The notes under the pieces: generated by a model | Database searches by the model: none | Seen by the model: only the letters and a program-made list of their open reading frames with translations | Told to the model about the DNA's origin: nothing | Source: Candidatus Bipolaricaulia bacterium | GTDB lineage: Bacteria > Bipolaricaulota > Bipolaricaulia > JBHIAT01 | Length of the DNA: 11,731 nucleotides | Assembly: GCA_046758705.1 (NCBI GenBank) | Contig: JBHIAT010000120.1 | Coordinates: 1 to 11,731, forward strand | Direction of reading: 5' to 3' | Part shown: piece by piece, positions 1 through 11,731 of the stretch | How the letters are laid out: each line of letters begins with the position of its first letter | Position numbering within the stretch: position 1 is the stretch's first letter | Made by a program: the position numbers and the translations under genes

Positions 1-598
1 TCATCAGCACCCACGGCGTCCACCAGTCACCGAACACCGTCAGTCCGAAGATGCTTCCAAATCCCAGCAGTTCACGCACCACACCCAGCAGCGTCAGCGA
101 CATCAGAAAGCCAAACCCGGTTCCCAGCGCATCCATGGTCGCCAGCCACGGCCTGTGGCCCGAGGCGTACGCTTCGGCTCGTCCGAGTATGAAGCAGTTG
201 GTGATGATCAACGCCACGTAGGGTCCCAACTGTTTGCTGAGGGACGGGATGTACGCCTTGAGGAACAGATCGACGAGGGTGACGTAGAAGGCGATGATGA
301 TCATGTAGGAGGCAATGCGCACCCGATCGGGGACGATGTTTCGGATCAGGGACACCGTCGCCGAGGAGGCGGCCACCGAGAAGGTGGTGGCCAATGCCAT
401 GCCGACGGCATTGGTGGCGGTGTTGGTGACGGCCAAGGTGGGGCACATGGCCAGGACCATGCGAAACGTGGGGTTGTCGTCCCAGATATCTTTGACGAGC
501 TCTTTGAACGATTCGGTCTTGGTCCAGCGTCGCCAGGTGGGCAGGGTTTCGGTGGTGGCGGGTGCCTGGGCCTGAGCCCGCTCGATGTTTTCAGCCAT
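1..598 (-). CDS. rnfE: Rnf electron transport complex subunit E (RnfE/NqrD family), 3'-truncated by window edge
   Basis: Not in the ORF track (no stop inside the window). Manual translation from ATG at 598 gives MAENIERAQ...DIWDDNPTFRMVLAMCPTLAVTN...YVALIITNCFILGRAEAYA...VRELLGFG, with the two conserved Cys motifs (CPxLAVT, NCxILGRAE). GAGGAGGGAG RBS upstream; follows rnfG. Confidence 0.93.
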   Translation of the reverse strand, partial: MAENIERAQAQAPATTETLPTWRRWTKTESFKELVKDIWDDNPTFRMVLAMCPTLAVTNTATNAVGMALATTFSVAASSATVSLIRNIVPDRVRIASYMIIIAFYVTLVDLFLKAYIPSLSKQLGPYVALIITNCFILGRAEAYASGHRPWLATMDALGTGFGFLMSLTLLGVVRELLGFGSIFGLTVFGDWWTPWVLM

Positions 599-622
599 TG
601 GATCTCCCTCCTCTTCTATATT

Positions 623-1243
623 CTATTGTGCAAGAATCTCCCTCAATCTGTCAAGCTCTGCATTCAACAGCCTTCGGATCGCTGTCGAGGTGAACGTCGC
701 TCCGGTAATCGCCCGGTAGATGTTCGGCGCGGTCGGATCCGCAAATCGGATGAAGTCGACATGTTGCGGATCTTCCCATTTCACCTGCAACCCGTTGAAC
801 TGCGCTCGAAATTCAGCCTCCTCCATCCGCTGTCCCAGGCCGGGGGTCTCGCCGGTCTCGACGACCTCCATCCCGGTCAGCGTCCCCAGGTCCGGTTCGA
901 CCCCGATGGCCATGTCGACGATCCCCTGGAACCCGCCGCCTTGGGGGCGGATCACATATCCGATGATCTCTCCGCTCTCGTCCCGGCCGATCCAGTAGGT
1001 GAAGTCGTCGACCGTCTCCTCGGTGACGTAGCGGTTAAACGTCTCAAGCTGCTGGTCGAAGTCATCCTCGTCAAACGCGATGTCAAGGACGGCCATGATA
1101 TTCTGGCGCAGCCTTCTGGCGCCCGCTGCCTTGATCGTCGGTTCGGTGACGGTGGCGGCGATCGCAAGCACCAGGGCCGCAGCCACTGCGATCCCGGTCA
1201 TCACCCAGATCATCTTCAGCCCGGTCCGATCAATCAGCTTCAT
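623..1243 (-). CDS. rnfG: Rnf subunit G (FMN-binding, RnfG/NqrC family)
   Basis: N-terminal TM anchor, GFQG, ETPGLG and ITGATFTS (flavinylation motif S/TGAT). Start reassigned to ATG 1243 (MKLIDRTG), 5 bp after the rnfD stop and preceded by GGAGG. The 1408 start in the track overlaps rnfD. Confidence 0.92.
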   Translation of the reverse strand: MKLIDRTGLKMIWVMTGIAVAAALVLAIAATVTEPTIKAAGARRLRQNIMAVLDIAFDEDDFDQQLETFNRYVTEETVDDFTYWIGRDESGEIIGYVIRPQGGGFQGIVDMAIGVEPDLGTLTGMEVVETGETPGLGQRMEEAEFRAQFNGLQVKWEDPQHVDFIRFADPTAPNIYRAITGATFTSTAIRRLLNAELDRLREILAQ

Positions 1244-1248
1244 AGGCG

Positions 1249-2361
1249 CTATACCGCCTCCCTCCGATAGCCTTTCGGCAGGGTGAGTAGGTCGATCAGT
1301 GGGGTGAACATGTTCATGAGCAGTACGGCAAACAGGACGCCTTCTGCAAACCCGGTCAGCGCTCGAATCAATACGGTGAGTACACCGCAGCCGATCCCGA
1401 AGATCCACTTGCCCCGGCTGAGCATCGGATGGGTGACTGGATCGGTGAGCATGAAGAAAGCCGCGAGGAACACGCCGCCGGCCAGCATCTGGAACAGTGG
1501 GGGGGCGAACCTCTCCGGAGTCAGGATGTTAAGCCCCCAGGCGAGCAGGCCGACCGTCCCGATGTAGCTCAGCGGTACCCGCCAGTCGATGATCTTGGTG
1601 ACGATCAGCAAAATCCCACCCAACAGCAGCAACAGTGCCGAGGTCTCTCCAATCGACCCGGAGATGTTCCCCAAGAACATCTCTCGCAACGGGAAAGTCT
1701 CCGCTGTGGCCTTGAAGTTAATCAATGGGGTTGCCCGGCTAATCGCATCGGAGGAAATGGCATAGGTTCCAAACCCGGCAACGCCCCCGACCATCGGCTC
1801 CGCCCATCGGGTGGTCATCTCGACCGGGAACGAGATGAGCAGAAACGCCCGACCGACCAGTGCCGGGTTGAAGATGTTGTTCCCGGTTCCGCCAAAGATC
1901 TCCTTGCCCATCGCGACCCCGACGATGATTCCCAACGCCACCATCCATAGGGGGGTCGTCGGCGGCAGAGTGAGCGGGAACAGGATCCCGGTGACCAGAA
2001 GTCCCTCGGTGATGTCCTCTCCACGGACGTAGCTGAAGATCATCTCGGTGAGCCCGCCGACCGTATAAGAGACAGCCACGATCGCCAGCGCCCGCCAGCC
2101 GAAGAAGTAGATGCCTGCCAGCGTCGGTAGCATGAGCCCGATGATCGGCATCGACATGAACCGCTGCATCCCGATGTTGTCCCGCAGGTACGGGAAAGTA
2201 TCGGCGACCAGCTCGGTCCCGCCGAAGAGGAATCCCTCAGCACCCTTAACAAGCGGGGTTAACTTCTTTAATCGCTCGTCCGATTCCACCCGGTTGTTGA
2301 GGTTCTCGAACAACCGTTCAAGGCGCTCCTCGATCGCCCGAGATCTCTCTTGGTCGGCCAT
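1249..2361 (-). CDS. rnfD: Rnf subunit D (RnfD/NqrB family) membrane flavoprotein
   Basis: Polytopic protein with EGLLVTGILFPLTLPP, KEIFGGTGNNIFNPALVGRAFL, DAISRATPL (covalent FMN Thr), GSIGETS, FFMLTDPVT and EGVLFAVLLMNMFTPLID. Confidence 0.95.
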   Translation of the reverse strand: MADQERSRAIEERLERLFENLNNRVESDERLKKLTPLVKGAEGFLFGGTELVADTFPYLRDNIGMQRFMSMPIIGLMLPTLAGIYFFGWRALAIVAVSYTVGGLTEMIFSYVRGEDITEGLLVTGILFPLTLPPTTPLWMVALGIIVGVAMGKEIFGGTGNNIFNPALVGRAFLLISFPVEMTTRWAEPMVGGVAGFGTYAISSDAISRATPLINFKATAETFPLREMFLGNISGSIGETSALLLLLGGILLIVTKIIDWRVPLSYIGTVGLLAWGLNILTPERFAPPLFQMLAGGVFLAAFFMLTDPVTHPMLSRGKWIFGIGCGVLTVLIRALTGFAEGVLFAVLLMNMFTPLIDLLTLPKGYRREAV

Positions 2362-2425
2362 TGGTGCTCGCTATGCTCCCTTCTGGGTCAGGCGGTCAAA
2401 AACCAGAGTTCTTCAGTCCGCATTT

Positions 2426-2454
2426 ATATTAGTCCATCAACCCTCAAATGTCAA
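2426..2454 (-). promoter_or_regulatory. Putative internal sigma70 promoter upstream of rnfD
   Basis: Minus strand TTGACA (2454-2449), 17-bp spacer, TAATAT (2431-2426), in the 131-bp AT-richer rnfC-rnfD gap. Confidence 0.55.
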
Positions 2455-2492
2455 GCGATCCTATCATGAATCAGAAGGGCCTTATCGTCACT

Positions 2493-3935
2493 TTACTGCC
2501 CCTCCATCATCTGTCGTTCGAGCTTCTCCTTCCCTTCCTTGATCAACGCGGCCAGCGGGATCTTTGACGGACAGACGTAAGAGCAGAGCCCGCAGTCGAT
2601 GCAAGCGAAGATATTCAGATCCTGAGCCCGATCGAACATCTCGTGCTGTGCGTACCGGGCGAGGAAGATCGGCGAGATGTCCACCGGACAGACGTCGAAG
2701 CAATAACCACAGCGGACGCATTCTCGCGGTTCGCCGTGCAGACCGACATCCGCCTGTTTGGCTTTGTCGCCACCGGGGACCGGCGGAAACACTCCCGTAT
2801 AGGAGCTCCGATCGAACCCGGGTTTGACGAACGCCAGCAATTCCCGGGTCGGTCGCTTGAGCACGGTGACCGCCTGGGTATTCTTTAACACCGGTGCCTC
2901 CAGGCTCTCCTGCGCATGGCCTCGTATCGGTCCGCCGAGCAGAATCACCCCCACCTGTTCCTCGATCAACCGATCCGAAAGCAATGCTTTGAGCGGGGTC
3001 CCGACCCGCACCCAGAAGTTTCCTGTATGTTGTAATGCCGAGCCGCTGATCGAGGTCGTCCGTTCGACGAACGGCCGGCCCAAGATCACCGCATCATAGG
3101 CGGCAACCAAGTACTGTACATCGACGACGACGGCGCCGACGTCGGTGGTGTACCCCCGGGTCGGTTCGGTTGGCACGTAGAGATCGAGCAGCGTCCTGAG
3201 CAGTACGTCATCCTCCCCTTGAGGGTACTTGGGACGGAGCGGGTGGATATAAAACCAATCCAGATGTTGGATCCGAGTCTCAAGTTCCTCGATGATCCGG
3301 GGCTTGTTATAGCCGATCCCGACGTGAACCTCCACGTTGCCGAGCGCGGTGCGCATGATCCGGATCCCGGTGAAGAACTTTTCGAACTCCTCGTAGATGA
3401 GCTGGTCTTCGGCTTCGAGATACGGCTCGGTCTCGACCGCATTGATTACCAGATACTTCACATTGCCGGGCTCGGTTTGGGCGGAGTTGAACGGTGTAGG
3501 GAATCCGGTCCGCCCGATGTCGGTCACCCCGCCAAGGTACAACAGCTCACCGAGCTCCTCCTGGCTTTTGCGTTCGAATGCCCCCCCGGCTTCCGCCAAC
3601 GTCTCCCAGCTGTCCTCGCCGTCGGACTCGATCACCACCGCCGTTGCCTCTCCGCCCAGTGGGTGCGGCCGTTCCTCGATCTCGACCACCTCTCCTGAGA
3701 TGCTGGCGTGGATCGGCGTTGAAACGACTTCATCATCTCGACCGATGATCTGGCCTGTCTTCACCCGGTCGCCGACCTCCACCTGGGGTTTGACCGCCTC
3801 GCCGACCCCCGGCTTAAGAAAAACAGTCACCCGGTCGGGTGGGGGGAGGCGCTCCAGCCGTTCAAACCTTGGCGTCCCTTCATACAGGTCGAAGTAGTGT
3901 CCCCCTTTGAACGTCTTGAGTGTCTCTAAAGGCAT
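2493..3935 (-). CDS. rnfC: Rnf subunit C-like protein (RnfC/NqrA family) with two [4Fe-4S] motifs
   Basis: KTFKGG start, VGDRVKTGQ and PIHASISGEV (N-terminal domain), GFPT, INAVETEPY, KYPQG, VRVGTP, GGP, plus CVRCGYCFDVCP and CIDCGLCSYVCPSKIPL. Confidence 0.92.
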   Translation of the reverse strand: MPLETLKTFKGGHYFDLYEGTPRFERLERLPPPDRVTVFLKPGVGEAVKPQVEVGDRVKTGQIIGRDDEVVSTPIHASISGEVVEIEERPHPLGGEATAVVIESDGEDSWETLAEAGGAFERKSQEELGELLYLGGVTDIGRTGFPTPFNSAQTEPGNVKYLVINAVETEPYLEAEDQLIYEEFEKFFTGIRIMRTALGNVEVHVGIGYNKPRIIEELETRIQHLDWFYIHPLRPKYPQGEDDVLLRTLLDLYVPTEPTRGYTTDVGAVVVDVQYLVAAYDAVILGRPFVERTTSISGSALQHTGNFWVRVGTPLKALLSDRLIEEQVGVILLGGPIRGHAQESLEAPVLKNTQAVTVLKRPTRELLAFVKPGFDRSSYTGVFPPVPGGDKAKQADVGLHGEPRECVRCGYCFDVCPVDISPIFLARYAQHEMFDRAQDLNIFACIDCGLCSYVCPSKIPLAALIKEGKEKLERQMMEGQ

Positions 3936-3973
3936 TGACGGTTACCACTCTCTCTGCGAACGGAGGTTCAAGT

Positions 3974-4753
3974 TCAAGATCTGCGGGTGCCGACCGACTC
4001 CCGTTTCTGTTCCTTGCGCAACGGCTTGCTGAGGCCATCCGCGCGCACCCGCCAAATATGCAGGAAGATAAACAGCAACATGACGGCCGGGAACAGGATG
4101 ACATGAGTCACATAAAACCTGATCAGCGATGGTTGCCCCAACTCAGTCCCTCCGAACAGGGCAAATTTCGCCTGATCCCCGAAGAACGGCGTCGCTCCGG
4201 CAATGTTTGAGGCGATGCTCGCCGCCCAGTAGGCGAGCTGATCCCAGGGAAGCAGATACCCGGTGAAGCCCATGACATAGGTGAAGACGAACAGAAGTAC
4301 CCCGAGCACCCAGTTAAACTGACGGGGCTTCTGATAGGAGCCGGTGAAGAACACCCGGATCATGTGGATGGTGACGGTCACGACCATCAGGTTGGCCGAC
4401 CAGCGGTGCAGGTTCCGGGTGAATCGCCCCAGGGTGACGACGTTGCTGATCTCCAGGATGCTGTTGTAAGCGCGCTCCACCGAGGGGATATAGTAGAACA
4501 TCAGGAAGATCCCGGTCAACAGGGTGACGAAGTAAAGCCAGAGCGAGATCGCCCCCATGTACCAGGTATAAGAGAACGCCAACGCGCGCTTGCTCTCCCG
4601 AGCACCGACCCACCAAAGATGGACAAAGAAGTTCCGGCTGATCACCGAAATCCGCTCGGCGGTGGTACGCGGCAGATGGTCCCGTCTGAAGATCGACCGC
4701 CAGACCTCCGTCCGTCTCACATACTGGAACAGCAGCAGCAGCTTGTCGATCAT
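3974..4753 (-). CDS. Cytochrome b6-like protein (cytochrome b N-terminal domain, PetB/QcrB-like)
   Basis: TGIFLMFYYIPS..AYNS, RNLHRWSANLMV...HMIRVFFTGSY.KPRQFNW, FTGYLLPWDQLAYWA, RFYVTH...LHIWRVRADGLSKPL. Four heme-ligand His, with 14 residues between the helix-D pair (b6-type spacing). Confidence 0.93.
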   Translation of the reverse strand: MIDKLLLLFQYVRRTEVWRSIFRRDHLPRTTAERISVISRNFFVHLWWVGARESKRALAFSYTWYMGAISLWLYFVTLLTGIFLMFYYIPSVERAYNSILEISNVVTLGRFTRNLHRWSANLMVVTVTIHMIRVFFTGSYQKPRQFNWVLGVLLFVFTYVMGFTGYLLPWDQLAYWAASIASNIAGATPFFGDQAKFALFGGTELGQPSLIRFYVTHVILFPAVMLLFIFLHIWRVRADGLSKPLRKEQKRESVGTRRS

Positions 4754-4778
4754 CGTGTCATCGTTCGTCTACAGATCT

Positions 4779-5360
4779 CTAAATATCGACCGGCTCTCCT
4801 TGGTCGTTGATGTGCCTGCCGTCCGGGGTCAGGTAGATGTTGTGATCGATCCCCTTCCAGTAACTGCCTTTGTCGATCGACTTATCGACCAGCAGCCGGC
4901 CGTCGACCGCCAGCGTCATCAGGAAGAACGGCAGCGGCAGCGGCGCCGGCCCATTAATAACGGAGCCGTCCCGGGCGAACACGCTCCCGTGACACGGGCA
5001 TTCGAAACGCAATCTGGTTGAGCTCCACTTCGGCTTACAGCCCAGATGAGTACAAACGTTGGAGATCGCCTGGAATCCCAATTCAGCTCGAAAGACGAAG
5101 ACCCGTTGGTCCCCCATGTCTCCGATGTCCCCGATCTGAAAGTCGGAGGGCTGCCCCGCGGAAAAGATCGGCGAGGATTCAAAGGTGATGCTGGGGTAGA
5201 AGAGTCCGACACCCCAGGCTGTAACGGTCCCCAGAACCAACGTGAGCGATCCCAAACCGAGGCGGGCGAAGAACCGCCGGCGGGTGATCTGCTGGGCTTC
5301 CTTCGGGATACCTGAAAATAGCTCCGGCTGCTCCGGCCTTCTCTCTAGCTCGCTTCCCAC
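4779..5360 (-). CDS. Rieske [2Fe-2S] protein of Rieske/cytochrome b type (PetC/QcrA-like) with Tat anchor
   Basis: TRRRFF twin-arginine motif followed by a hydrophobic helix; CTHLGC and CPCHGS boxes; GPAPLPL loop. GTG start preceded by GAAGGAAGG. Confidence 0.93.
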   Translation of the reverse strand: MGSELERRPEQPELFSGIPKEAQQITRRRFFARLGLGSLTLVLGTVTAWGVGLFYPSITFESSPIFSAGQPSDFQIGDIGDMGDQRVFVFRAELGFQAISNVCTHLGCKPKWSSTRLRFECPCHGSVFARDGSVINGPAPLPLPFFLMTLAVDGRLLVDKSIDKGSYWKGIDHNIYLTPDGRHINDQGEPVDI

Positions 5361-5390
5361 ATCTGACCTTCCTTCTTCAGTACGTTGCCC

Positions 5391-5419
5391 ATTTTATGGA
5401 ACCGGATCGGATATGTCAA
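5391..5419 (-). promoter_or_regulatory. sigma70 promoter of the Rieske-cytb-rnf operon
   Basis: Minus strand TTGACA (5419-5414), 17 bp, TAAAAT (5396-5391), 30 bp upstream of the Rieske GTG. Confidence 0.75.
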
Positions 5420-5534
5420 GGATACAGATCGATCCGACTTTAGTTCGGCGTAGCTTTCCGTTTCTAAGTAATCCTCTTGACAAATTTATACAATCCAACC
5501 CCATTATACTATGACCGACGTCATTCCAAAATAT

Positions 5535-5549
5535 GATATGAATCATATC
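5535..5549. promoter_or_regulatory. Palindromic candidate operator GATATGA-A-TCATATC
   Basis: Perfect 7-1-7 inverted repeat in the AT-rich region between the divergent promoters. Confidence 0.4.
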
Positions 5550-5564
5550 TTGATTTGAGTTCCT

Positions 5565-5594
5565 TTGACAGGTGATCCGACGGTGAGCTATAGT
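5565..5594 (+). promoter_or_regulatory. sigma70 promoter of the aldehyde dehydrogenase gene
   Basis: TTGACA (5565-5570), 18 bp, TATAGT (5589-5594). Followed by a purine-rich RBS (GGAAGGAAGGAAAGGG) and ATG at 5639. Confidence 0.65.
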
Positions 5595-5648
5595 AATGTT
5601 AGAATTAGGGATCTGGAAGGAAGGAAAGGGAACTATTCATGGAGATTT

Positions 5649-5902
5649 GTGACGCTCCACGCACTAAAGTACGTGGCTTCTCGCTTCACAGACGGAACTT
5701 GCACAAGCAGAGGTTCTCGTCTCCACGCAGGCCGCGCCCGGCCTGGTACACACAGCATTTTAGTTTCTTTAGGCCAGGCTTGGTGGCGGTTAGCTTCTGT
5801 CTCGCTGAACCGCAAAACGCTGGCAAAATACACCTGGCTATACCCACAACGTTTTACGTTGCGCAGGGTTGTGGCAACAACCCCCTACGTTGTCAAAGAC
5901 CT
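5649..5902 (-). ncRNA. Putative TnpB omegaRNA (reRNA)-like structured RNA
   Basis: Lies downstream of an internal promoter, is rich in hairpins (5691-5721, 5786-5813, 5847-5861, 5866-5883) and ends exactly at the IS right end TCAC. The 5' end is estimated from the -10 position. Confidence 0.6.
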
Positions 5903-5908
5903 ATGGTG

Positions 5909-5937
5909 GTTATACCACATGCAGGAGGGGAAGTCAA
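5909..5937 (-). promoter_or_regulatory. sigma70 promoter inside the IS element
   Basis: Minus strand TTGACT (5937-5932), 17 bp, TATAAC (5914-5909), just inside the left-end hairpin. Confidence 0.7.
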
Positions 5938-5987
5938 GGGCGGCTGTATCCGCGCACTAAAAGTACGCGGTTTTAGCCGCTGAAAGA

Positions 5988-7463
5988 ATGAATAAGAATC
6001 TGATCGGTGGCCAATGGGTTGAGGCCGAGGGAGGGGGTACGTTCGAGTCACGCAATCCGGCTGACACCTCCGACCTGATCGGGGTATTTCCCGACTCCGA
6101 CAAACACGATGTCGCGCGGGCGGTGGCGGCGGCCGACGAGGCATTTTTCGATTGGAAGCAGTTTCCAGCCCCCAGGCGGGCGGAGATCCTGTTTGAAGCT
6201 GCCGAGGTGCTGAAGCGGAAGAAAGAGGAGCTCTCGAAGTTGATGACCCGGGAGATGGGCAAGGTGCTCAACGAGGCGCGCGGCGATGTCCAGGAGGGGG
6301 TCGACATGACTTACTACATCGCCGGGGAGGGCCGTCGGCTTCACGGCTACACCACCAAAGCCGAACTTCCCAACAAGGCGACGTACGCGCGCCGAGAGCC
6401 GATCGGCCGCATCGCTGTCATAACCCCGTGGAATTTCCCGCTGGCGATTCCCACCTGGAAGCTGATGCCGGCACTGGTGGCCGGCAACACGGTCGTGTGG
6501 AAACCGGCCACAGACACGCCCCGTCTCGCATACGAACTGGCGGTGTTGCTCCAGGAGGCCGGACTCCCGGACGGGGTGCTCAACGTCGTCTTCGGCCACG
6601 GCAAGCGTGTCGGCCAACCGCTCGTCGAGCACGAAAAGATCGATATGCTCACGTTTACCGGATCGACCGAAGTCGGCAGACACCTGTACCGGGTTGCGGC
6701 GGACAAACTGAACGTGGTGCATCTGGAGATGGGCGGCAAAAATCCGCTCATCGTCATGGACGATGCCGACCTCGACCTGGCGCTGGACGGGATCATTTGG
6801 GGCGCGTTCGGGACGACCGGACAGCGCTGCACCGCCGCCAGCCGAATCATCGTTCACAAAGGGGTCATCGGCGAAGTGATCGAACGGCTCGTCACCGCCA
6901 CTAAACAGCTCAAGGTCGGAAACGGCCTCGACGAGGAGATCGACGTGGGACCGGTCATCAACAAGGCCCAGCTGGATACGATTCACCACTATGTTGAGAT
7001 CGGTCAACAGGGGGGAGCTGAGCTCCTGTGCGGCGGTCGAGTCCTCGACTCGGGGTCCTACGTGAACGGTTACTTCTACGAGCCGACGGTGTTCGCTGGC
7101 GTCACCCCGGAGATGAGGATCTTCAAGGAGGAAATCTTCGGGCCGGTCGCGGTGGTGGTAGAAGCTCAAGACTACGAGGATGCGATCCGGATCGCCAACA
7201 ACACCGACTACGGTCTGTCGTCGGCGATCTACACCCGGGACGTCAACCTGGCGCATCGGGCGATGGACGATCTGGAGGCGGGAATCGTCTATATCAACAG
7301 CAGCACGATCGGTGCCGAGATCCATCTGCCGTTCGGCGGGGTCAAGGGAACCGGGAACGGGCATCGGGAGGCGGGTCAGGCTGCGCTCGAGACCTACACC
7401 GAGTGGAAGGCAGTGTATATCGACTACAGCGGCAGACTCCAGAAGGCCCAGGGGATCGAATAG
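5988..7463 (+). CDS. NAD(P)-dependent aldehyde dehydrogenase family protein (original start probably 5639, interrupted by IS element)
   Basis: ITPWNFP, WKPA, FTGSTEVG, LEMGGKN (catalytic Glu), GQRCTA (catalytic Cys), EEIFGPV, LPFGGVK. Substrate cannot be assigned. Confidence 0.95.
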   Translation: MNKNLIGGQWVEAEGGGTFESRNPADTSDLIGVFPDSDKHDVARAVAAADEAFFDWKQFPAPRRAEILFEAAEVLKRKKEELSKLMTREMGKVLNEARGDVQEGVDMTYYIAGEGRRLHGYTTKAELPNKATYARREPIGRIAVITPWNFPLAIPTWKLMPALVAGNTVVWKPATDTPRLAYELAVLLQEAGLPDGVLNVVFGHGKRVGQPLVEHEKIDMLTFTGSTEVGRHLYRVAADKLNVVHLEMGGKNPLIVMDDADLDLALDGIIWGAFGTTGQRCTAASRIIVHKGVIGEVIERLVTATKQLKVGNGLDEEIDVGPVINKAQLDTIHHYVEIGQQGGAELLCGGRVLDSGSYVNGYFYEPTVFAGVTPEMRIFKEEIFGPVAVVVEAQDYEDAIRIANNTDYGLSSAIYTRDVNLAHRAMDDLEAGIVYINSSTIGAEIHLPFGGVKGTGNGHREAGQAALETYTEWKAVYIDYSGRLQKAQGIE

Positions 7464-7582: not shown

Positions 7583-9595
7583 ATGAGGCACAAAGTGATT
7601 GTTTCCATAAGTCTGGTCGTGGCATTAGTACTAGCGGCATCCGGTCCAGCCGAATCACAACCCAGGCGTTCATATGCGGGCACAACGCCCGCTCCGGAGT
7701 TTCCAATCGGTCTGGATTGGCTCAACACTGATCGACCACTCACCCTTGAGCAACTCAAAGGCAAGGTGGTGCTTCTAGATTTCTGGACTTACGGGTGCAT
7801 CAATTGTATGCACATCATTCCAGAGTTAAAGCAGTTGGAGGAAGAGTATCGCAATGAGCTAGTGGTGATTGGCGTTCACTCCGCTAAGTTCACCAACGAA
7901 GGGGATACCGACAACATCCGCCAGATTATTCTTCGCTACGGATTGGAACATCCCGTCGTCAACGACCGGAACTTTTTGCTATGGCGCATGTGGGGCGCGC
8001 GCGCCTGGCCCACCCTGGTCCTGATTGACCCGGCAGGCAACGTCGTCGGCGGACACATGGGCGAAGGCATTTATCCGATCTTCAAGCCGGTGATCGAATC
8101 ATTGGTGCAGGAGTTTGAGGCCAAGGGCATACTGGATCGTACGCCGTTGGGCCTCAAGCTGGAAAAAGAGGGCTTGCCCGAAACCGTGCTATCATTCCCC
8201 GGCAAGATTCTGGCCGATGCAGACGGCGGTCGCCTGTTCATCGCTGATACCAACCACAACCGGATCGTCATCGCTGATATTGACAGTGGTGACGTATTCA
8301 ACCTGATTGGCAGCGGGGAGCGTGGTTTTGACGATGGTGATTTCCGCACAGCAACCTTTTCTCAGCCGCAAGGGATAGCGCTTTCGGAAGACGGTCGCAC
8401 GCTCTATGTCGCCGATACCGAAAATCACGCTGTGCGTCAGATGGACTTGGTGAACGAAGCGGTGACGACGCTGGTCGGCACCGGTTTCCAGGCACGTATG
8501 TATCCACCAGTATTTGGCTCGGCTCCGAATGTCGCGTTGAACTCCCCATGGGATCTGGAGTTGGATGGCCATCTGCTTTACATTGCTATGGCCGGCTCCC
8601 ATCAAATTTGGGTTGTCAATCTGTCGACAGGAGTGACTCTACCGTTTGTCGGCAACGGCCGCGAGAGCACGCTTAACGGTCCTCGAGACCGGGCGGAGTT
8701 GGCGCAGCCCAGCGGCTTGGCGCTGGATGGCCAGGGCCGACTGTACTTCGCCGACTCCGAGAGCAGTTCGATTCGCTGGGCGGAGACCGATCCGGAGAAC
8801 GGCGAGACCGGCAGCCTGGTCGGCAGCACGAGCAGCTTGTTTCAGTTTGGCGATGTGGATGGTGTGGGTGTCGAGGCTCGCCTACAGCACCCGCTAGGCG
8901 TGGTCTATCACGAGGGTGTGCTCTATGTCGCTGATACCTACAACAGCAAGATCAAGCGCGTTGTCCCTGAGACGCGAGAGATTCAAACATTCATGGGCAG
9001 CGAGCATGGCTGGCGAGACGGTACCGATCCGCTGTTCTACGAGCCCGGTGGTATCGATGTGGCTAACGACAAACTCTATGTGGCCGACACGAACAATCAT
9101 GTGGTGCGGGTCATTGAACTGGACACCCAGGAAACCCGCACGCTGATACTCAAAGGCATCGAGCGCTTCATGGCCTCGCCGGATGACGAAGGCTTCGGCG
9201 GTAAGATCGTGCTCGTTGATCCCATTGAGGTTGGAGTCGGCAGGGGCAAGGTGCTGATTTATATAGCGTTTCCCGACGGCTATAAGGTCAACGATGAGGC
9301 TCCCAATTCGATGGCGTGGGAGGTTGATGGCGACGTGGTCGTGCTGCCTTCCGATGCGAACCGTTCCATCGTGGCCCCCAGCTTCCCGCTGGAACTGGAT
9401 GTCACCTTCAAGCAGGGTGAAGGCCAGCTGACTGGCGACCTGAACATCTTCTACTGCGAGGTGGAAAAGGAAAGCATCTGCCTGATTGAGCGAGTGCGAT
9501 TGGAAGCGCCGATCAAGGTCAAGGACAACGGGGACGACATCTTGAAGCTGAGCCATAGCATCGAGCTCCCGGAGATTGATACGCAAGCACCGTGA
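7583..9595 (+). CDS. Thioredoxin-like + NHL-repeat beta-propeller protein (NHLRC2/SOQ1-like) with signal peptide
   Basis: N-terminal MRHK + hydrophobic stretch; LLDFWTYGCINC, VIGVHSAKF, RAWPTLVLIDP; repeated L(Y/F)(V/I)ADTxNH motifs, LNSPWDL, LAQPSGL, LQHPLGV; C-terminal beta-rich domain with FYC...SIC. Confidence 0.92.
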   Translation: MRHKVIVSISLVVALVLAASGPAESQPRRSYAGTTPAPEFPIGLDWLNTDRPLTLEQLKGKVVLLDFWTYGCINCMHIIPELKQLEEEYRNELVVIGVHSAKFTNEGDTDNIRQIILRYGLEHPVVNDRNFLLWRMWGARAWPTLVLIDPAGNVVGGHMGEGIYPIFKPVIESLVQEFEAKGILDRTPLGLKLEKEGLPETVLSFPGKILADADGGRLFIADTNHNRIVIADIDSGDVFNLIGSGERGFDDGDFRTATFSQPQGIALSEDGRTLYVADTENHAVRQMDLVNEAVTTLVGTGFQARMYPPVFGSAPNVALNSPWDLELDGHLLYIAMAGSHQIWVVNLSTGVTLPFVGNGRESTLNGPRDRAELAQPSGLALDGQGRLYFADSESSSIRWAETDPENGETGSLVGSTSSLFQFGDVDGVGVEARLQHPLGVVYHEGVLYVADTYNSKIKRVVPETREIQTFMGSEHGWRDGTDPLFYEPGGIDVANDKLYVADTNNHVVRVIELDTQETRTLILKGIERFMASPDDEGFGGKIVLVDPIEVGVGRGKVLIYIAFPDGYKVNDEAPNSMAWEVDGDVVVLPSDANRSIVAPSFPLELDVTFKQGEGQLTGDLNIFYCEVEKESICLIERVRLEAPIKVKDNGDDILKLSHSIELPEIDTQAP

Positions 9596-9605
9596 CTCAT
9601 TCCAC

Positions 9606-10661
9606 CTAATGCTCTAGCTCTATGCCCAACTCGCTGCCCAGTTCCTCTAGCTCAGCATATAGCTCTTGGCTCAGCGGAATCCCGTGTTTCAGGCGCTCGC
9701 GCTCCGTCCTTGCCTCAGGCTCCCCTGGAAGAAAGACTTCATCAAACTCCTCTGCCGGTGGGATCGACTTGATCTCACGGATCATCTGATCGACTCGCTG
9801 CTTAAATTCGTCTGCGGGCAGATAGCTGGCGATATCGATCGCGCCGACAAAGTGCCCGATCGCCTGAGGTTCGGAGAAGTTGTCGTACATGCGGTTGATG
9901 TGGACACCGAAGGCTGATCCGGTCAGCAGGGCGGAGAGAATGTCAATGATCACCGCCAGGCCGTAGCCCTTCGACCCTCCCAGGGGACGAACCGCTCGAG
10001 CTTTCTTGGGATCGGTGATGGGATTCCCTTCCGTGTCCACCGCCCAATCTTCGGGGATCTCGCGCCCCTCCTGTGCCGCTACCATGACCTTGCCCATGGC
10101 GACCCCGCTGGTGGCCATATCCAGAACAATAGGTAACTCATCTTTGGCGGGAACGGCTATCGCGAGGGGATTTGTCCCGAGGACAGGTTTTTTACCGCCG
10201 AAGGGGATCATATCGGCCTCGGCGTGAGTGAGGGCGAGGCCGATCATATCGTCCTCCAGGGCCCTCATGGCGAAGTAGGCCGCGGTTCCGAAGTGGTTGC
10301 TGTTCTTGATCGCAACAAATCCCACGCCTGCCTCCTTGGCGATTGGGATCGCTTCGTCCATCGCTCGTAGCGCGACCAGTTGTCCTGGCCCATTTCCCCC
10401 ATCCAAGATCGCCGTGGCAGGTGCGGTTCGCGTCAGCCTCATCTCAGGCTGGGTCACGATCAACCCCATCCGCATTCGCTTGACATAGATGCCCAGGCGC
10501 ATCACTCCATGGCTGTCCACACCGCGAAGGTTGGCCTTAACCAGGGAATCCGACACAATTTCGGCATTCTCCGGCGAAAGTTCGGCCTTGATCAGCACCT
10601 CACGACAGAAATCTTTGAGTTTTTCCGCTCTTACTTTAAGTACATCGTTATTTTCATTCAT
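9606..10661 (-). CDS. Ldh_2 family (malate/L-lactate/ureidoglycolate) dehydrogenase, AllD-like
   Basis: ANLRGVDSHG, NSNHFG, PFGG...GTNPLA, LDMATS, KGYGL, LPGEPE. Start placed at ATG 10661 (or 10664), overlapping the upstream stop and following AGGAAG. Confidence 0.9.
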   Translation of the reverse strand: MNENNDVLKVRAEKLKDFCREVLIKAELSPENAEIVSDSLVKANLRGVDSHGVMRLGIYVKRMRMGLIVTQPEMRLTRTAPATAILDGGNGPGQLVALRAMDEAIPIAKEAGVGFVAIKNSNHFGTAAYFAMRALEDDMIGLALTHAEADMIPFGGKKPVLGTNPLAIAVPAKDELPIVLDMATSGVAMGKVMVAAQEGREIPEDWAVDTEGNPITDPKKARAVRPLGGSKGYGLAVIIDILSALLTGSAFGVHINRMYDNFSEPQAIGHFVGAIDIASYLPADEFKQRVDQMIREIKSIPPAEEFDEVFLPGEPEARTERERLKHGIPLSQELYAELEELGSELGIELEH

Positions 10662-11106
10662 CATCTTCCTGATCTTCGGGCTCGGAGTCAAGCACCGCGA
10701 TCGCCTCGACTTCGATGAGCATCTTGGGGTCCACTAGGCCTTGGACCTCGACCATCGTGAGCGCCGGTCGGATCTCCCCGAAGAACTCTGCGTGGGCGCG
10801 CCCGTACTCTCGCCAGCGTGAGATGTCTGTGACGTAGAAACGCGTGCAGACGACGTGGCGTCGGGCAGCTCTCGCCTGGTGGAGAGCCCATTTGACCTTC
10901 TCCAACGCATAGCGGGTCTGCGCATAGGCATCCCCTTCACCGACTACACGCCCCTCGGCATCAGAGGCAGTCGTCCCGGCGACGTACACCGTATCTCGAA
11001 CACGTACCGCCCGTGAGTAGCCCACAATCGGCTCCCAGGGCGCCGCCGATGAGATGCGTAGCCGCTCCACTGCCCCGGTCTCCTGCCCTGTATTCGGCGG
11101 TTTCAT
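10654..11106 (-). CDS. Rid (YjgF/YER057c/UK114) family protein
   Basis: WEPIVGYSRAVRV, VAGTTA, AHAEFFGEIRPALTMVEV, LIEVEA. Start at ATG 11106 after AGGAAGGAG (alternative start 11124). Confidence 0.9.
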   Translation of the reverse strand: MKPPNTGQETGAVERLRISSAAPWEPIVGYSRAVRVRDTVYVAGTTASDAEGRVVGEGDAYAQTRYALEKVKWALHQARAARRHVVCTRFYVTDISRWREYGRAHAEFFGEIRPALTMVEVQGLVDPKMLIEVEAIAVLDSEPEDQEDDE

Positions 11107-11120
11107 CGTTCTCTCCTTCC

Positions 11121-11731
11121 TCATTGCACCTCTGTGGCTGACCTGGAGGCGTGCAGACCAACGGGCCGTCTGATGTACTGCCCCTCGGGCGTGCCTACGA
11201 GCTCACCGTTCGCTAAGACCGGACGGCCCCTGAGTATCGTGTGGGTGGGCCATCCTCGTATCTGCATCCCGGCAAACGGAGTGAAGTCTTGAGCTGACCG
11301 AAGCACCTCCGGCGTCACCTCCACCTGCTGCTCAAGATCTATGATGCTGAGATCGGCGTCGCTACCGATGGCGATTGTCCCCTTGATGGGATAGAGCCCG
11401 AAGGCGCGCGCCGGGTTGGCGCTGATCAGCTCAGCGATGCGCGTCAGGGAGAGACCCTGCTGATGATATCCTTCAGAGATGAGGTAGGGGTAGAGGAGCG
11501 CCGTGCCCCCGAAGCCGGGAAGGGCTTTCCAGAGATCCTCACCCTTCTGTGCTTCGAAGCAGCACGCGTGGTCGCTCACCACGGTATCGATGCGGCCATC
11601 GATCATAGCCTCCCAGAGTGCCTCGCGATCATCCTCGGTACGAATCGGAGGATTGACCTTGCCACGAAGGTCACCGGCCGTGGCGTGGGTCAGGGCAAGG
11701 TGATGGACCGTGGTTTCCAGGCGGATGTCCA
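11121..11731 (-). CDS. Cyclic amidohydrolase (allantoinase/dihydropyrimidinase/dihydroorotase family), C-terminal part, 5'-truncated
   Basis: The reading frame runs to the window edge: ETTVHHL..GKVNPPIR..DREALW..IDTVVSDHA..PGFGG..NPARAFGLYPIKGTIAIGSDADL..TPFAG..GWPTHTILRG. Confidence 0.9.
   Translation of the reverse strand, partial: DIRLETTVHHLALTHATAGDLRGKVNPPIRTEDDREALWEAMIDGRIDTVVSDHACCFEAQKGEDLWKALPGFGGTALLYPYLISEGYHQQGLSLTRIAELISANPARAFGLYPIKGTIAIGSDADLSIIDLEQQVEVTPEVLRSAQDFTPFAGMQIRGWPTHTILRGRPVLANGELVGTPEGQYIRRPVGLHASRSATEVQ

What the first reader, a model, noticed from the sequence alone, without database searches (positions are those of the whole stretch)
1..5419. Rieske + cytochrome b6 module heading an rnfCDGE operon: candidate quinone-linked Rnf variant
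Seen: one promoter, then Rieske, cyt b6, rnfC, rnfD, rnfG and rnfE on the same strand, with 25- and 38-bp gaps between the first three genes. Known: canonical Rnf is a ferredoxin:NAD+ oxidoreductase without Rieske/cyt b. In Methanosarcina (mmcA) and Desulfovibrio (dhcA) a multiheme cytochrome c occupies this position ahead of rnfC. Inference: here an externally facing Rieske protein and a diheme membrane cytochrome may link the complex (e.g. via the external FMN of RnfG) to the quinone pool, giving a hybrid ion-pumping complex. I do not recognise this arrangement as a described one, but cannot confirm novelty.
Basis: partly seen in the sequence, partly recalled or inferred. Interest (0 to 1): 0.85.

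Follow-up and report, generated by a model that had tools for sequence, protein, structure and literature searches.

The report
Rieske/cytochrome b complex built into Rnf
This operon of an uncultured Bipolaricaulota bacterium joins a quinol-oxidising Rieske/cytochrome b complex to an Rnf-type redox pump through unusual iron-sulfur adaptor proteins, a design noted once in print in 2012 but never studied.

Summary
The genes lie on the minus strand: Rieske (5360-4779), cytochrome b6 (4753-3974), rnfC, rnfD, rnfG and rnfE, with gaps of 25 and 38 nt and one promoter-like site at 5419-5391. The window is a whole contig that cuts rnfE.

By synteny the operon continues on contig C154 with:
- the end of rnfA;
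- a non-canonical "RnfB" (one membrane helix, an NqrF-type 2Fe-2S domain and the RnfB N-terminal FeS domain, no polyferredoxin);
- a last gene that fuses a 2Fe-2S ferredoxin to cytochrome b subunit IV.

The cytochrome b complex therefore brackets the rnf genes, which argues for one machine.

Rieske-cyt b-rnfC order is kept in all 26 Bipolaricaulota genomes found. None of the 54 nearest cytochrome b relatives in other phyla has it. Some lineages lost rnfG/E/A; no ApbE flavin transferase was found in their genomes.

The evidence points to cytoplasmic wiring. The proposed RnfG-Rieske contact was not tested. The direction of electron flow is unresolved.

It is not new. Takami et al. 2012 mention the cluster in Ca. 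Acetothermum autotrophicum, and this scan found the truncated form before on other DNA (e1-1200341). The fused subunit IV and the odd RnfB were not found in print.

The parts
5391..5419 (-). promoter-like site TTGACA-17-TAAAAT, 30 nt upstream of the Rieske start
   Evidence: 11 of 12 matches. Four sites were found in 3800-6100 against 1.2 expected from shuffles. Consensus match only.
4779..5360 (-). Rieske [2Fe-2S] protein, 193 aa, with a twin-arginine leader and one membrane anchor
   Evidence: PF00355 E 2.4e-12.: below the cut-offs of all named Rieske families (PetC 67 against 250).: CTHLGC and CPCHGS kept in all 21 rows aligned.: one hydrophobic stretch at 36-54.
3974..4753 (-). cytochrome b6-type subunit (N-terminal, four-helix, two-haem half of cytochrome b), 259 aa
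   Evidence: PF00033 E 5.8e-42.: ExtP model 249.6 bits (cut-off 290).: invariant H116/H130 and H217/H232 (14-residue spacing in the second pair), and no invariant Cys.
2493..3935 (-). RnfC, 480 aa: RnfC_N, Nuo51-type FMN/NADH domain, two 4Fe-4S motifs. It has an altered glycine loop and a family-specific insert at about residues 365-400.
   Evidence: TIGR01945 343 bits.: 9ERI_C E 6.4e-63; canonical GLGGATFPT aligns with DIGRTGFPT.: the substitution is family-wide.
1249..2361 (-). RnfD, 370 aa, with the threonine of the flavin-attachment site (AISRATPL)
   Evidence: PF03116 E 6.5e-104; TIGR01946 290 bits.: alignment of 20 orthologues.
623..1243 (-). RnfG, about 206 aa: one membrane helix plus an FMN_bind domain with the flavinylation motif ITGATFTS
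   Evidence: PF04205 E 1.3e-11.: TIGR01947 82 bits, below the cut-off of 102.: the motif is kept in 10 of 10 full-form rows.
2..598 (-). RnfE, first 199 aa, cut by the contig end. Both conserved cysteines are visible (MCPTL, TNCFILGR).
   Evidence: PF02508 E 3.1e-57; RsxE model 210 bits. The remainder (end of rnfE, rnfA, rnfB-like, ferredoxin-subunit IV) lies outside the window. The last three are on contig C154 at 8240-6285, minus strand.

Best explanation
The window holds the first six genes of a nine-gene operon for one membrane complex. A Rieske/cytochrome b6/subunit IV quinol-oxidising module is built into an Rnf-type redox pump.

Shown:
- The gene order is Rieske, cyt b6, RnfC, D, G, E, A, an RnfB-like protein and a ferredoxin-subunit IV fusion.
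- RnfB's polyferredoxin, the usual entry for soluble ferredoxin, is absent.
- In its place stand two NqrF-type 2Fe-2S domains. One sits on a short anchor that keeps RnfB's N-terminal 4Fe-4S domain. The other is fused to the N-terminus of subunit IV.

Inferred:
- The N-terminus of subunit IV is taken to face the cytoplasm, by homology. The fused ferredoxin would then sit near the inner haem of cytochrome b.
- Electrons would pass between that haem and the Rnf core through the chain: 2Fe-2S, then 4Fe-4S and 2Fe-2S of RnfB', RnfA/E, RnfG-FMN, RnfD-FMN, RnfC.
- This would connect the menaquinone pool with NAD(H), in place of the ferredoxin:NAD+ reaction of ordinary Rnf.

Direction is not settled. 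The known polarity of Rnf and NQR (recalled, not tested here) says ions are exported only when electrons run from the B side to the C side. My preferred reading is therefore quinol oxidation at the outer site. The Rieske electron would go to the aerobic chain. The low-potential electron would be sent inward towards NAD+.
For: - One operon, bracketed by the cytochrome b complex. Rieske and cyt b6 are at the 5' end. The ferredoxin-subunit IV fusion is the last gene in the own genome (C154 7322-6285). Evidence for the fusion: PF00111 E 1.9e-13 plus PF00032 at 20.1 bits; ExtQ model E 1.9e-18 over the whole profile; stand-alone subunit IV and full-length cytochrome b proteins at E 1e-21 to 1e-14 in a search of 5.8 billion proteins.
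- In 54 of 54 non-Rnf relatives, the homologue of this C-terminal domain directly follows cyt b.
- The Qo-motif position reads SPWY here and APWY in 20 Rnf-linked and 52 of 54 ordinary loci.
- Synteny holds in 12 of 12 loci and 26 of 26 loci.
- RnfB' matches NqrF profile positions 11-137 of 405 and RnfB positions 34-99 of 190. Eight Cys are invariant.
- No other Rnf/Nqr core was found. PF02508 gives exactly 2 matches, both inside this operon, in each of the 6 full-form relatives, and 0 in the 6 reduced-form genomes. The own genome has only this operon's pieces and one PF04060 domain.
- Flavin sites are present in RnfD and RnfG. ApbE is found in 7 of 7 full-form genomes and 0 of 6 reduced-form genomes.
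- A MenA-like gene is over its cut-off in 4 of 5 genomes. Haem-copper oxidase is in 13 of 13.
- The Rnf-linked cytochromes b form one clade (SH-aLRT 96).
Against: - No physical evidence exists. No RNA data were found.
- The link of C120 to C154 rests on synteny with relatives. About 500 bp (the end of rnfE and most of rnfA) is unassembled. A second contig, C147, carries a 95%-identical rnfA end followed by unrelated DNA.
- The RnfC glycine loop differs from all three solved RnfC proteins (G to R/Q/K). NAD(H)/FMN binding is therefore not assured.
- No redox partner for the Rieske cluster is encoded in the operon. No c-type cytochrome is a conserved neighbour: of 14 loci examined, only two had flanking ORFs with CxxCH motifs.
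- Energetics: from ordinary b-haem potentials, electron flow to NAD+ through a pump that exports ions is uphill. The opposite direction would import ions while running downhill. Neither simple scheme is satisfying.
- The reduced forms show that the Rieske/cyt b-RnfC/D link does not need the ion-translocating core.
Confidence: 0.6

Rival explanations
1. The main contact is on the outer face. The mobile Rieske head exchanges electrons with the covalently bound FMN of RnfG (or RnfD). NADH-derived electrons then reach the outer quinone site by way of RnfC, RnfD, RnfG and Rieske. This may coexist with the cytoplasmic link, so that two one-electron paths converge on one quinone.
For: - The Rieske protein has a twin-arginine leader. 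By homology its head should lie on the same outer side as the RnfG FMN domain.
- No cytochrome c partner for the Rieske protein is encoded in the operon or conserved next to it.
- RnfG and RnfD keep their flavin sites, and ApbE is present.
Against: - The Rieske protein is kept in every reduced-form locus that is long enough (5 of 5; 10 of 10). Those loci lack RnfG. ApbE was not found in 0 of 6 such genomes, and the RnfD motif is degenerate there.
- This wiring does not explain the two extra cytoplasmic 2Fe-2S modules.
- It was not tested by any structural call here.
Confidence: 0.15
2. Two ordinary complexes that merely share an operon: a Rieske/cytochrome b quinol oxidase that hands electrons to a cytochrome c encoded elsewhere, and a separate Rnf ferredoxin:NAD+ oxidoreductase, as published metabolic models of Acetothermia assume.
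For: - All 13 genomes tested have a haem-copper oxidase. In G007 and G027 this query found no cytochrome b other than the operon's own. The Rieske/cyt b pair may therefore also serve normal respiration.
- The Qo motif is the same as in ordinary relatives.
- Takami 2012 and Colman 2022 (PMC9586279, passages read) treat the Rnf as canonical.
Against: - Subunit IV is separated from cyt b by six or seven rnf genes and is fused to a ferredoxin.
- The RnfB-like protein has no polyferredoxin and falls below the RnfB cut-off (56.8 against 68.7).
- The order is invariant across 26 genomes that share only about 50% protein identity.
- In reduced forms RnfC/D persist without RnfA/E/G, which cannot be a working Rnf.
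Confidence: 0.1
3. A ferredoxin-fed branch point. Soluble reduced ferredoxin, or another low-potential donor, reduces the exposed NqrF-type 2Fe-2S domains. From there electrons go either through the Rnf core to NAD+ (pumping ions) or through cytochrome b to menaquinone at the inner site. That second route would be a hard-wired version of the ferredoxin-to-quinone route proposed for cytochrome b6f in cyclic photosynthetic flow (recalled).
For: - It gives a thermodynamically downhill, ion-exporting direction through the Rnf core.
- 5 of the 7 full-form genomes carry acetyl-CoA synthase (CdhC) and so probably make reduced ferredoxin.
- Both adaptor domains are ferredoxin-like.
Against: - The window's own genome showed no CdhC match (93.9% complete), as did 6 further genomes of the 13.
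- This scheme gives the Rieske protein and the outer quinol site no role.
- No ferredoxin-docking polyferredoxin is present.
Confidence: 0.15

Closest known systems
Ca. Acetothermum autotrophicum cluster OP4C155-0162 (Takami et al. 2012, PMC3267732; passages read)
   Same: Same phylum-level lineage and the same stated order. [quoted passage not shown]
   Different: In the passages read, the paper gives one sentence and treats the complex as a normal ferredoxin:NAD+ Rnf. It counts eight genes, so the ninth (ferredoxin-subunit IV) is not included, and the non-canonical nature of "RnfB" is not mentioned. I did not see its figures or supplements. On the cytochrome b tree the window's copy is the most divergent of the 27 Rnf-linked copies compared (it sits on a long branch, so its placement is uncertain).
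Canonical Rnf complex (structures 9ERI of A. woodii, 8AHX of A. vinelandii, 7ZC6 of C. tetanomorphum)
   Same: RnfC, D, G, E and A are homologues (RnfC against 9ERI_C E 6.4e-63). The flavin-attachment motifs and the RnfE cysteines are present. ApbE is in the genome.
   Different: There is no polyferredoxin RnfB. The RnfC glycine loop is altered and RnfC has an extra insert. Rieske, cytochrome b and subunit IV are added.
Na+-NQR (NqrF of 8A1T and 7XK3)
   Same: Both adaptor proteins carry a 2Fe-2S domain that resembles NqrF (E about 1e-9 against the PDB; nqrF model E 1e-17 and 8e-14). RnfB' also keeps the N-terminal membrane helix that precedes it. Like NQR, the complex would be quinone-linked.
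   Different: There is no FAD/NADH domain (only profile positions 11-137 of 405 match). The RnfC-type subunit keeps its two 4Fe-4S motifs, unlike NqrA. The quinone site would be supplied by a cytochrome b complex on the opposite end of the electron path.
Anammox Rieske/cytochrome b complexes with an NAD(P)H-linked subunit (Kuenenia; PMC12954380, search listing and start of abstract only)
   Same: A Rieske/cytochrome b complex co-encoded with a nicotinamide-linked module and proposed to generate NAD(P)H.
   Different: The partners differ: a flavoprotein and multihaem cytochromes there, Rnf subunits here. Those complexes are also not settled biochemically.
Ordinary Rieske-cyt b-subunit IV operons of the ExtP/ExtQ type, and Bacillus QcrABC (the latter recalled)
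   Same: These are the nearest cytochrome b relatives (41-48% identity, 54 loci in Acidobacteriota, Planctomycetota, Bacteroidota and others). They have the same APWY motif and the same split of cytochrome b. In Bacillus, subunit IV is also a fusion protein (with cytochrome c; recalled).
   Different: In those operons subunit IV follows cyt b directly and no rnf genes are present. Here the fusion partner is a cytoplasmic ferredoxin at the N-terminus.
Truncated form found earlier by this scan (e1-1200341) and a cyt b-RnfC-RnfD trio (e1-1087783)
   Same: e1-1200341 describes the same family in its reduced version: Rieske, cyt b, RnfC, RnfD, RnfB-like and ferredoxin-subunit IV. I re-found that version here in 10 of 26 loci.
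   Different: The window carries the full version with RnfG/E/A. The tree suggests the full version is ancestral. I did not examine the trio.

Membership tests
Rnf complex (RnfABCDGE) | RnfC, RnfD and RnfE score over the curated family cut-offs | tested here: met
   RnfC TIGR01945 343 against 245.95; RnfD TIGR01946 290 against 207.05; RnfE (truncated) RsxE model 210.3 against 184.
Rnf complex (RnfABCDGE) | RnfG and RnfA are present and score as family members | tested here: inconclusive
   RnfG scores 82.3 bits on TIGR01947 (cut-off 102), although it has the FMN_bind domain and the motif. Only the last 61 aa of RnfA are assembled (C154). The RnfA orthologue in L038 scores 219.6 against 229.3.
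Rnf complex (RnfABCDGE) | RnfB with 4Fe-4S polyferredoxin domains as the ferredoxin entry | tested here: not met
   the RnfB-like protein has only PF00111 (2Fe-2S) and PF04060. It scores 56.8 bits on rnfB against a cut-off of 68.7 and covers profile positions 34-99 of 190. No other PF04060 protein is in the genome.
Rnf complex (RnfABCDGE) | Flavin-attachment threonines in RnfD and RnfG, and an ApbE flavin transferase (motifs recalled) | tested here: met
   AISRATPL in RnfD and ITGATFTS in RnfG.: ApbE at C15:2106-2981, 251.6 bits.
Rnf complex (RnfABCDGE) | Intact NADH/FMN glycine loop in RnfC | tested here: inconclusive
   GLGGATFPT in 9ERI_C aligns with DIGRTGFPT here. The third residue before FPT, a glycine in the solved proteins, is R, Q or K in 19 of the 20 sequences readable at this position (W in 2 of them; 1 of the 21 rows is masked there). 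Both 4Fe-4S motifs are intact.
Rieske/cytochrome b complex (bc1/b6f kind) | Rieske cluster-binding boxes and an export signal | tested here: met
   CTHLGC, CPCHGS and the TRRRFFARLG leader.
Rieske/cytochrome b complex (bc1/b6f kind) | Four haem-ligand histidines on two helices | tested here: met
   H116/H130 and H217/H232 are invariant in 13 of 13 sequences.
Rieske/cytochrome b complex (bc1/b6f kind) | C-terminal cytochrome b domain or subunit IV with the Qo (PEWY-type) motif | tested here: met
   it is present, but as the last gene of the operon (on C154) and fused to a ferredoxin. The motif is SPWY (APWY in relatives). Matches to solved subunit IV and cytochrome b are weak (E about 1) but in the right register.
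Rieske/cytochrome b complex (bc1/b6f kind) | A c-type cytochrome partner encoded with the complex | tested here: not met
   No CxxCH-bearing ORF lies in the operon. In the flanks of 14 loci only two unrelated multihaem ORFs were seen.
Cytochrome b6f / b6c with haem ci | Conserved N-terminal cysteine that binds haem ci (recalled) | tested here: not met
   no invariant cysteine in the 13 aligned cytochromes b.
Na+-NQR | NqrF with a FAD/NADH domain; NqrA without Fe-S clusters | tested here: not met
   only nqrF profile positions 11-137 of 405 match.: nqrA models fall far below their cut-offs, and two 4Fe-4S motifs are present.
Bipolaricaulota Rieske/cyt b-Rnf cluster (Takami 2012) | Order Rieske, cyt b, rnfC, D, G, E, A, B-like in a member of this lineage | tested here: met
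   for the window and for C154. The window's genome is "same class" as genomes whose records are titled Bipolaricaulota, Acetothermia or Fraserbacteria. The join across the contig break is inferred from synteny.

The most novel reading that the evidence does not exclude
The complex is a "complex III that makes NADH". Quinol oxidation at the outer site splits the two electrons. One goes through the Rieske protein to the aerobic chain. The other, low-potential electron leaves the inner haem through the fused ferredoxin, instead of being recycled to quinone. It then runs through the Rnf core to NAD+. This would be quinone-based electron bifurcation hard-wired to an ion-translocating Rnf. The tree suggests it was present in the ancestor of these Rnf-linked operons. 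Organisms without complex I would have a reverse-electron-transport route, and the reduced forms would be an uncoupled version.
Probability: 0.2. Interest if true: 0.85.

Novelty: new member of a known kind. Interest (0 to 1): 0.6.

Why it matters
In the 13 genomes tested, this hybrid holds the only Rnf/Nqr-type membrane-core genes found. Published metabolic models of Acetothermia treat their Rnf as an ordinary ferredoxin:NAD+ pump that conserves energy in acetogenesis (passages read in Takami 2012, and Colman 2022). One of the full-form loci (L058) comes from a record titled Candidatus Acetothermia.

If the ferredoxin entry is missing and the complex is wired to a quinol-oxidising cytochrome b, those energy budgets need revisiting.

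More generally, this would be a natural example of a Rieske/cytochrome b complex whose inner haem chain is led out to cytoplasmic iron-sulfur proteins. That bears on the long-debated ideas of NAD(P)H-producing bc complexes in anammox bacteria and of ferredoxin input into cytochrome b6f. The full and reduced forms, together with the matching presence and absence of ApbE, offer a ready-made comparison for biochemistry.

Tried and rejected
- Contig joins. I looked for k-mer overlaps between the start of C120 and other contig ends and found none.
- Taxonomy. I first guessed the class was Dehalococcoidia from the small genomes of the relatives. The record titles show Bipolaricaulota/Acetothermia/Fraserbacteria, so I dropped that guess.
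- Solved structures. A profile of the subunit IV part gave only E about 1 for b6f subunit IV and cytochrome b. Homology rests instead.
- AlphaFold2 model of the ferredoxin-subunit IV protein (14-row alignment): mean pLDDT 66. The ferredoxin and a helical domain (about residues 100-195) were modelled moderately. The membrane part scored 37-60. I did not run a fold search on it.
- Complex prediction of RnfC + RnfB' (30-217) + ferredoxin-subunit IV (1-205): no verdict, score 0.20 against a mark of 0.32, controls not run. This is evidence neither way.
- Sequencing runs: no RNA holder listed, so co-transcription could not be examined.
- The futalosine-pathway family PF02621 gave 0 of 5 genomes.
- Literature:
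  - Searches returned no paper other than Takami 2012 that links Rieske/cytochrome b with Rnf in this lineage.
  - (RnfC + RnfD + Rieske + cytochrome b) returned 0 papers.
  - The library lacks most subscription journals, and supplements were closed. Gene tables of Takami 2012 and Dataset S2 of Colman 2022 may hold more.
- I considered and rejected a separate canonical Rnf elsewhere in the genome.

Full report
WHAT IS IN THE WINDOW

The window is the whole of contig C120 of a metagenome-assembled genome: 3,698,413 bp, 319 contigs, 57% G+C, 93.9% complete, 4.7% contamination. The genes of the finding are real but lie on the minus strand.

- Rieske protein, 5360-4779.
- Cytochrome b6-type subunit, 4753-3974.
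- rnfC, 3935-2493.
- rnfD, 2361-1249.
- rnfG: probable start at 1243, end at 623.
- rnfE, 598-2, cut by the contig end.

The gaps of 25 and 38 nt are exact. A promoter-like site (TTGACA, 17 nt, TAAAAT) lies at 5419-5391, just before the Rieske start. An aldehyde dehydrogenase gene is transcribed divergently from 5988.

The Rieske protein has both cluster-binding boxes and a twin-arginine leader. The cytochrome b has the four haem-ligand histidines, invariant in 13 of 13 orthologues, and no conserved cysteine.

THE REST OF THE OPERON

A search of the genome for the RnfA/E family found fragments at three other contig ends. Contig C154, read on its minus strand from its end, begins with the last 61 residues of an RnfA-type protein. 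Two more genes follow.

The first (8013-7360, 217 aa) has one membrane helix, a 2Fe-2S domain closest to that of NqrF, and the small N-terminal Fe-S domain of RnfB. It has none of RnfB's 4Fe-4S ferredoxin domains. It scores below the RnfB cut-off (56.8 against 68.7 bits).

The second (7322-6285, 345 aa) starts with another NqrF-like 2Fe-2S ferredoxin. A helical region of about 100 residues follows. It ends in a three-helix membrane domain that is cytochrome b subunit IV. The evidence for that identity:
- Pfam PF00032 scores just under its cut-off (20.1 against 20.7 bits).
- The ExtQ model (partner of the ExtP cytochrome b) matches along its whole length at E 1.9e-18.
- In a search of 5.8 billion proteins, after 35 full-length fusion proteins, the next hits are stand-alone subunit IV proteins and full-length cytochromes b at E 1e-21 to 1e-14.

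The position of the PEWY quinol-oxidation motif reads SPWY.

That C154 follows C120 is inferred from relatives, in which exactly this order is contiguous. About 500 bp (the end of rnfE and most of rnfA) is missing from the assembly.

CONSERVATION

I searched 60 genomes that the tool ranks as the nearest relatives (all only "same class"). Full-length orthologues of the cytochrome b (51-58% identity) were found in 12. They are confined to three families: 7 of 8, 4 of 4 and 1 of 1. The three largest other families gave 0 of 14, 0 of 15 and 0 of 14. All 12 loci have Rieske, cyt b and RnfC in the same order and strand.

A scan of one genome per species (185,579 species) with the cytochrome b alignment kept 80 loci.
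- 26 of them carry rnfC directly after cyt b. All carry Bipolaricaulota, Acetothermia or Fraserbacteria titles, except three "uncultured Thermotogae" and one "uncultured bacterium". Twelve are the same contigs as above, so 14 are additional genomes.
- The other 54, from Acidobacteriota, Planctomycetota, Bacteroidota, Chloroflexota and others, have no rnf gene. They have a subunit IV gene directly after cyt b.

The Qo-motif position is APWY in 52 of those 54 and in the 20 Rnf-linked loci long enough to show it. The quinol site therefore looks like that of ordinary relatives.

TWO FORMS

Thirteen of the 26 loci are the full form seen here, with rnfG, rnfE and rnfA. Ten are a reduced form. Three contigs are too short to tell.

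In the reduced form rnfD is followed after about 330 bp by the RnfB-like gene, which carries about four membrane helices at its N-terminus, and then by ferredoxin-subunit IV.

Whole-genome searches agree with this split.
- The RnfA/E family gives exactly two matches, both inside this operon, in each of the six full-form relatives. It gives none in six reduced-form genomes (86-94% complete; for one of them, G059, the form is inferred from this search and from the tree, because its contig is short).
- The flavin transferase ApbE is found in 7 of 7 full-form genomes and 0 of 6 reduced-form genomes.
- RnfG keeps its flavinylation motif in 10 of 10 full-form rows.
- RnfD keeps an A-T-P-L site in full forms and a degenerate one in reduced forms.

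I built a quick maximum-likelihood tree of cytochrome b. It used the window, the 26 linked loci and 18 of the 54 ordinary loci as outgroup. I left out the other 36 to save time. The tree puts all Rnf-linked copies in one clade (SH-aLRT 96). The window's copy is sister to the rest (99). Reduced forms fall in two places. That fits one origin of the link, a full ancestral form and two losses. The window's branch is long (0.55), and the tool warns that such placements are uncertain.

HOW IT PROBABLY WORKS

Shown:
- The operon encodes every part of a Rieske/cytochrome b complex except a c-type cytochrome.
- It encodes every part of an Rnf complex except a ferredoxin-oxidising RnfB.
- It adds two 2Fe-2S modules, one of them covalently joined to subunit IV.
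- No second Rnf or NQR core was found in these genomes.

Inferred:
- By homology the N-terminus of subunit IV should be cytoplasmic. The fused ferredoxin would then sit at the inner face, next to the inner haem.
- In NQR the 2Fe-2S domain of NqrF feeds the intramembrane cluster of NqrD/E (recalled). The NqrF-like domain of RnfB' should do the same for RnfA/E.
- Together these give a continuous chain: quinol site, haems, fused ferredoxin, RnfB', RnfA/E, RnfG, RnfD, RnfC, NAD(H).

Caveat on RnfC: it keeps both 4Fe-4S motifs, but its glycine loop differs from the three solved RnfC proteins. NAD(H) binding is therefore probable, not certain.

Direction is open. Rnf and NQR export ions when electrons run from the B/F side to the D/C side (recalled). 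Export here would thus need electrons from the cytochrome b side to reach NAD+. That is feasible only if the outer quinol site bifurcates and the Rieske electron goes to a high-potential sink. All 13 genomes have a haem-copper oxidase. A MenA-like gene is over its cut-off in 4 of 5.

Other observations bear on direction.
- The four full-form genomes of genus g4 showed no NuoH (91-96% complete). This would fit an NADH-to-quinone role instead.
- The reduced forms show that the link works without the ion-translocating core.
- The window's organism has NuoH, an oxidase and two further Rieske/cytochrome b pairs (C16, C222). No acetyl-CoA synthase match was found. Here the complex is an extra, specialised one in an apparently respiring heterotroph.

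WHAT IS KNOWN

Takami et al. 2012 (PMC3267732, passages read) state that rnfCDGEAB of Ca. Acetothermum autotrophicum forms a cluster (OP4C155-0162) with Rieske and cytochrome b genes, and treat it as an ordinary Rnf. Colman et al. 2022 (PMC9586279, passages read) also treat Acetothermia Rnf as ferredoxin:NAD+ oxidoreductase and do not mention quinones.

My other searches found no analysis of the hybrid, of the fused subunit IV or of the atypical RnfB. Supplements and most subscription journals were out of reach.

This scan met the reduced form before on another genome (e1-1200341). That note led me to the Takami paper.

VERDICT

The object is a new and divergent member of a gene cluster already mentioned in print, but biochemically unknown.

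Noticed in passing
own genome, contig C147:1-190 against C154:8241-8052: C147 starts with a 95%-identical copy of the last 185 nt of rnfA. It diverges right after the stop codon into unrelated genes. This is either a second strain or allele in the bin (contamination 4.7%) or a rearranged second copy.
   Followed up: partly
own genome, contig C199:4779-5009: The contig end holds a shortened rnfE start. 63 nt are identical and about 125 nt are 98-99% identical to C120, with the stretch between them missing. Unrelated sequence follows. It is probably an assembly chimera or a deleted allele.
   Followed up: partly
own genome, contig C70:2058-2633: A stand-alone Rieske paralogue, 77% identical to the operon's Rieske protein, with no cytochrome b beside it. 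It lies between a CcdA/DsbD-like membrane protein and TusA-like and sulfite/nitrite-reductase-like genes. These names are judged by eye from the translations, not by a family search.
   Followed up: partly
relatives: L038, L040, L042, L044, L059 (upstream); L048, L049, L063, L065, L073 (downstream): Riboflavin-synthesis genes lie within about 3 kb of the operon in 10 of 14 loci examined, in both full and reduced forms. I recognised ribE-, ribBA- and ribH-like genes by eye from their N-termini. No family search was run. The window itself shows no such genes.
   Followed up: no
window 5988-7463 (+) and L073:7557-9035: An aldehyde dehydrogenase (2,5-dioxovalerate / alpha-ketoglutarate semialdehyde dehydrogenase-like, 549 bits, below its cut-off) is transcribed divergently from the operon in the window. 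A similar-looking one sits in the same position in a distant reduced-form locus.
   Followed up: no
relatives: reduced-form Rieske proteins (for example L045-L049, L063, L065, L068, L073, L074): Reduced-form Rieske proteins carry a C-terminal extension that ends in a conserved D/E-C-x-(P/A)-C motif. It is absent from full forms, from the window and from the L039 reduced-form locus.
   Followed up: no
relatives L073, L074 and L039/L062: Architecture variants. In L073 and L074 the ferredoxin and subunit IV parts are two separate genes. In L039/L062 there are two RnfB-like genes: one with four helices plus 2Fe-2S only, and one soluble with 2Fe-2S plus the FeS domain.
   Followed up: partly
window 7583-9595 (+), 9606-10691 (-), 10654-11124 (-): Unrelated neighbours: a 670-aa thioredoxin-fold plus NHL-repeat protein, an Ldh_2-family (ureidoglycolate/sulfolactate-type) dehydrogenase, and a RidA/L-PSP protein whose longest ORF overlaps it by 38 nt.
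   Followed up: no
own genome, contig C16:23887-26479: A second Rieske/cytochrome b pair, whose cytochrome b match has one in-frame TAG, lies next to the MenA-like prenyltransferase gene.
   Followed up: no
window 1-5600: The only public runs that hold this stretch are three runs of one study labelled hydrothermal vent metagenome (X1-X3, 0.92-0.95 of the words), plus a partial fourth. They may be the source sample, so they are not independent evidence.
   Followed up: no
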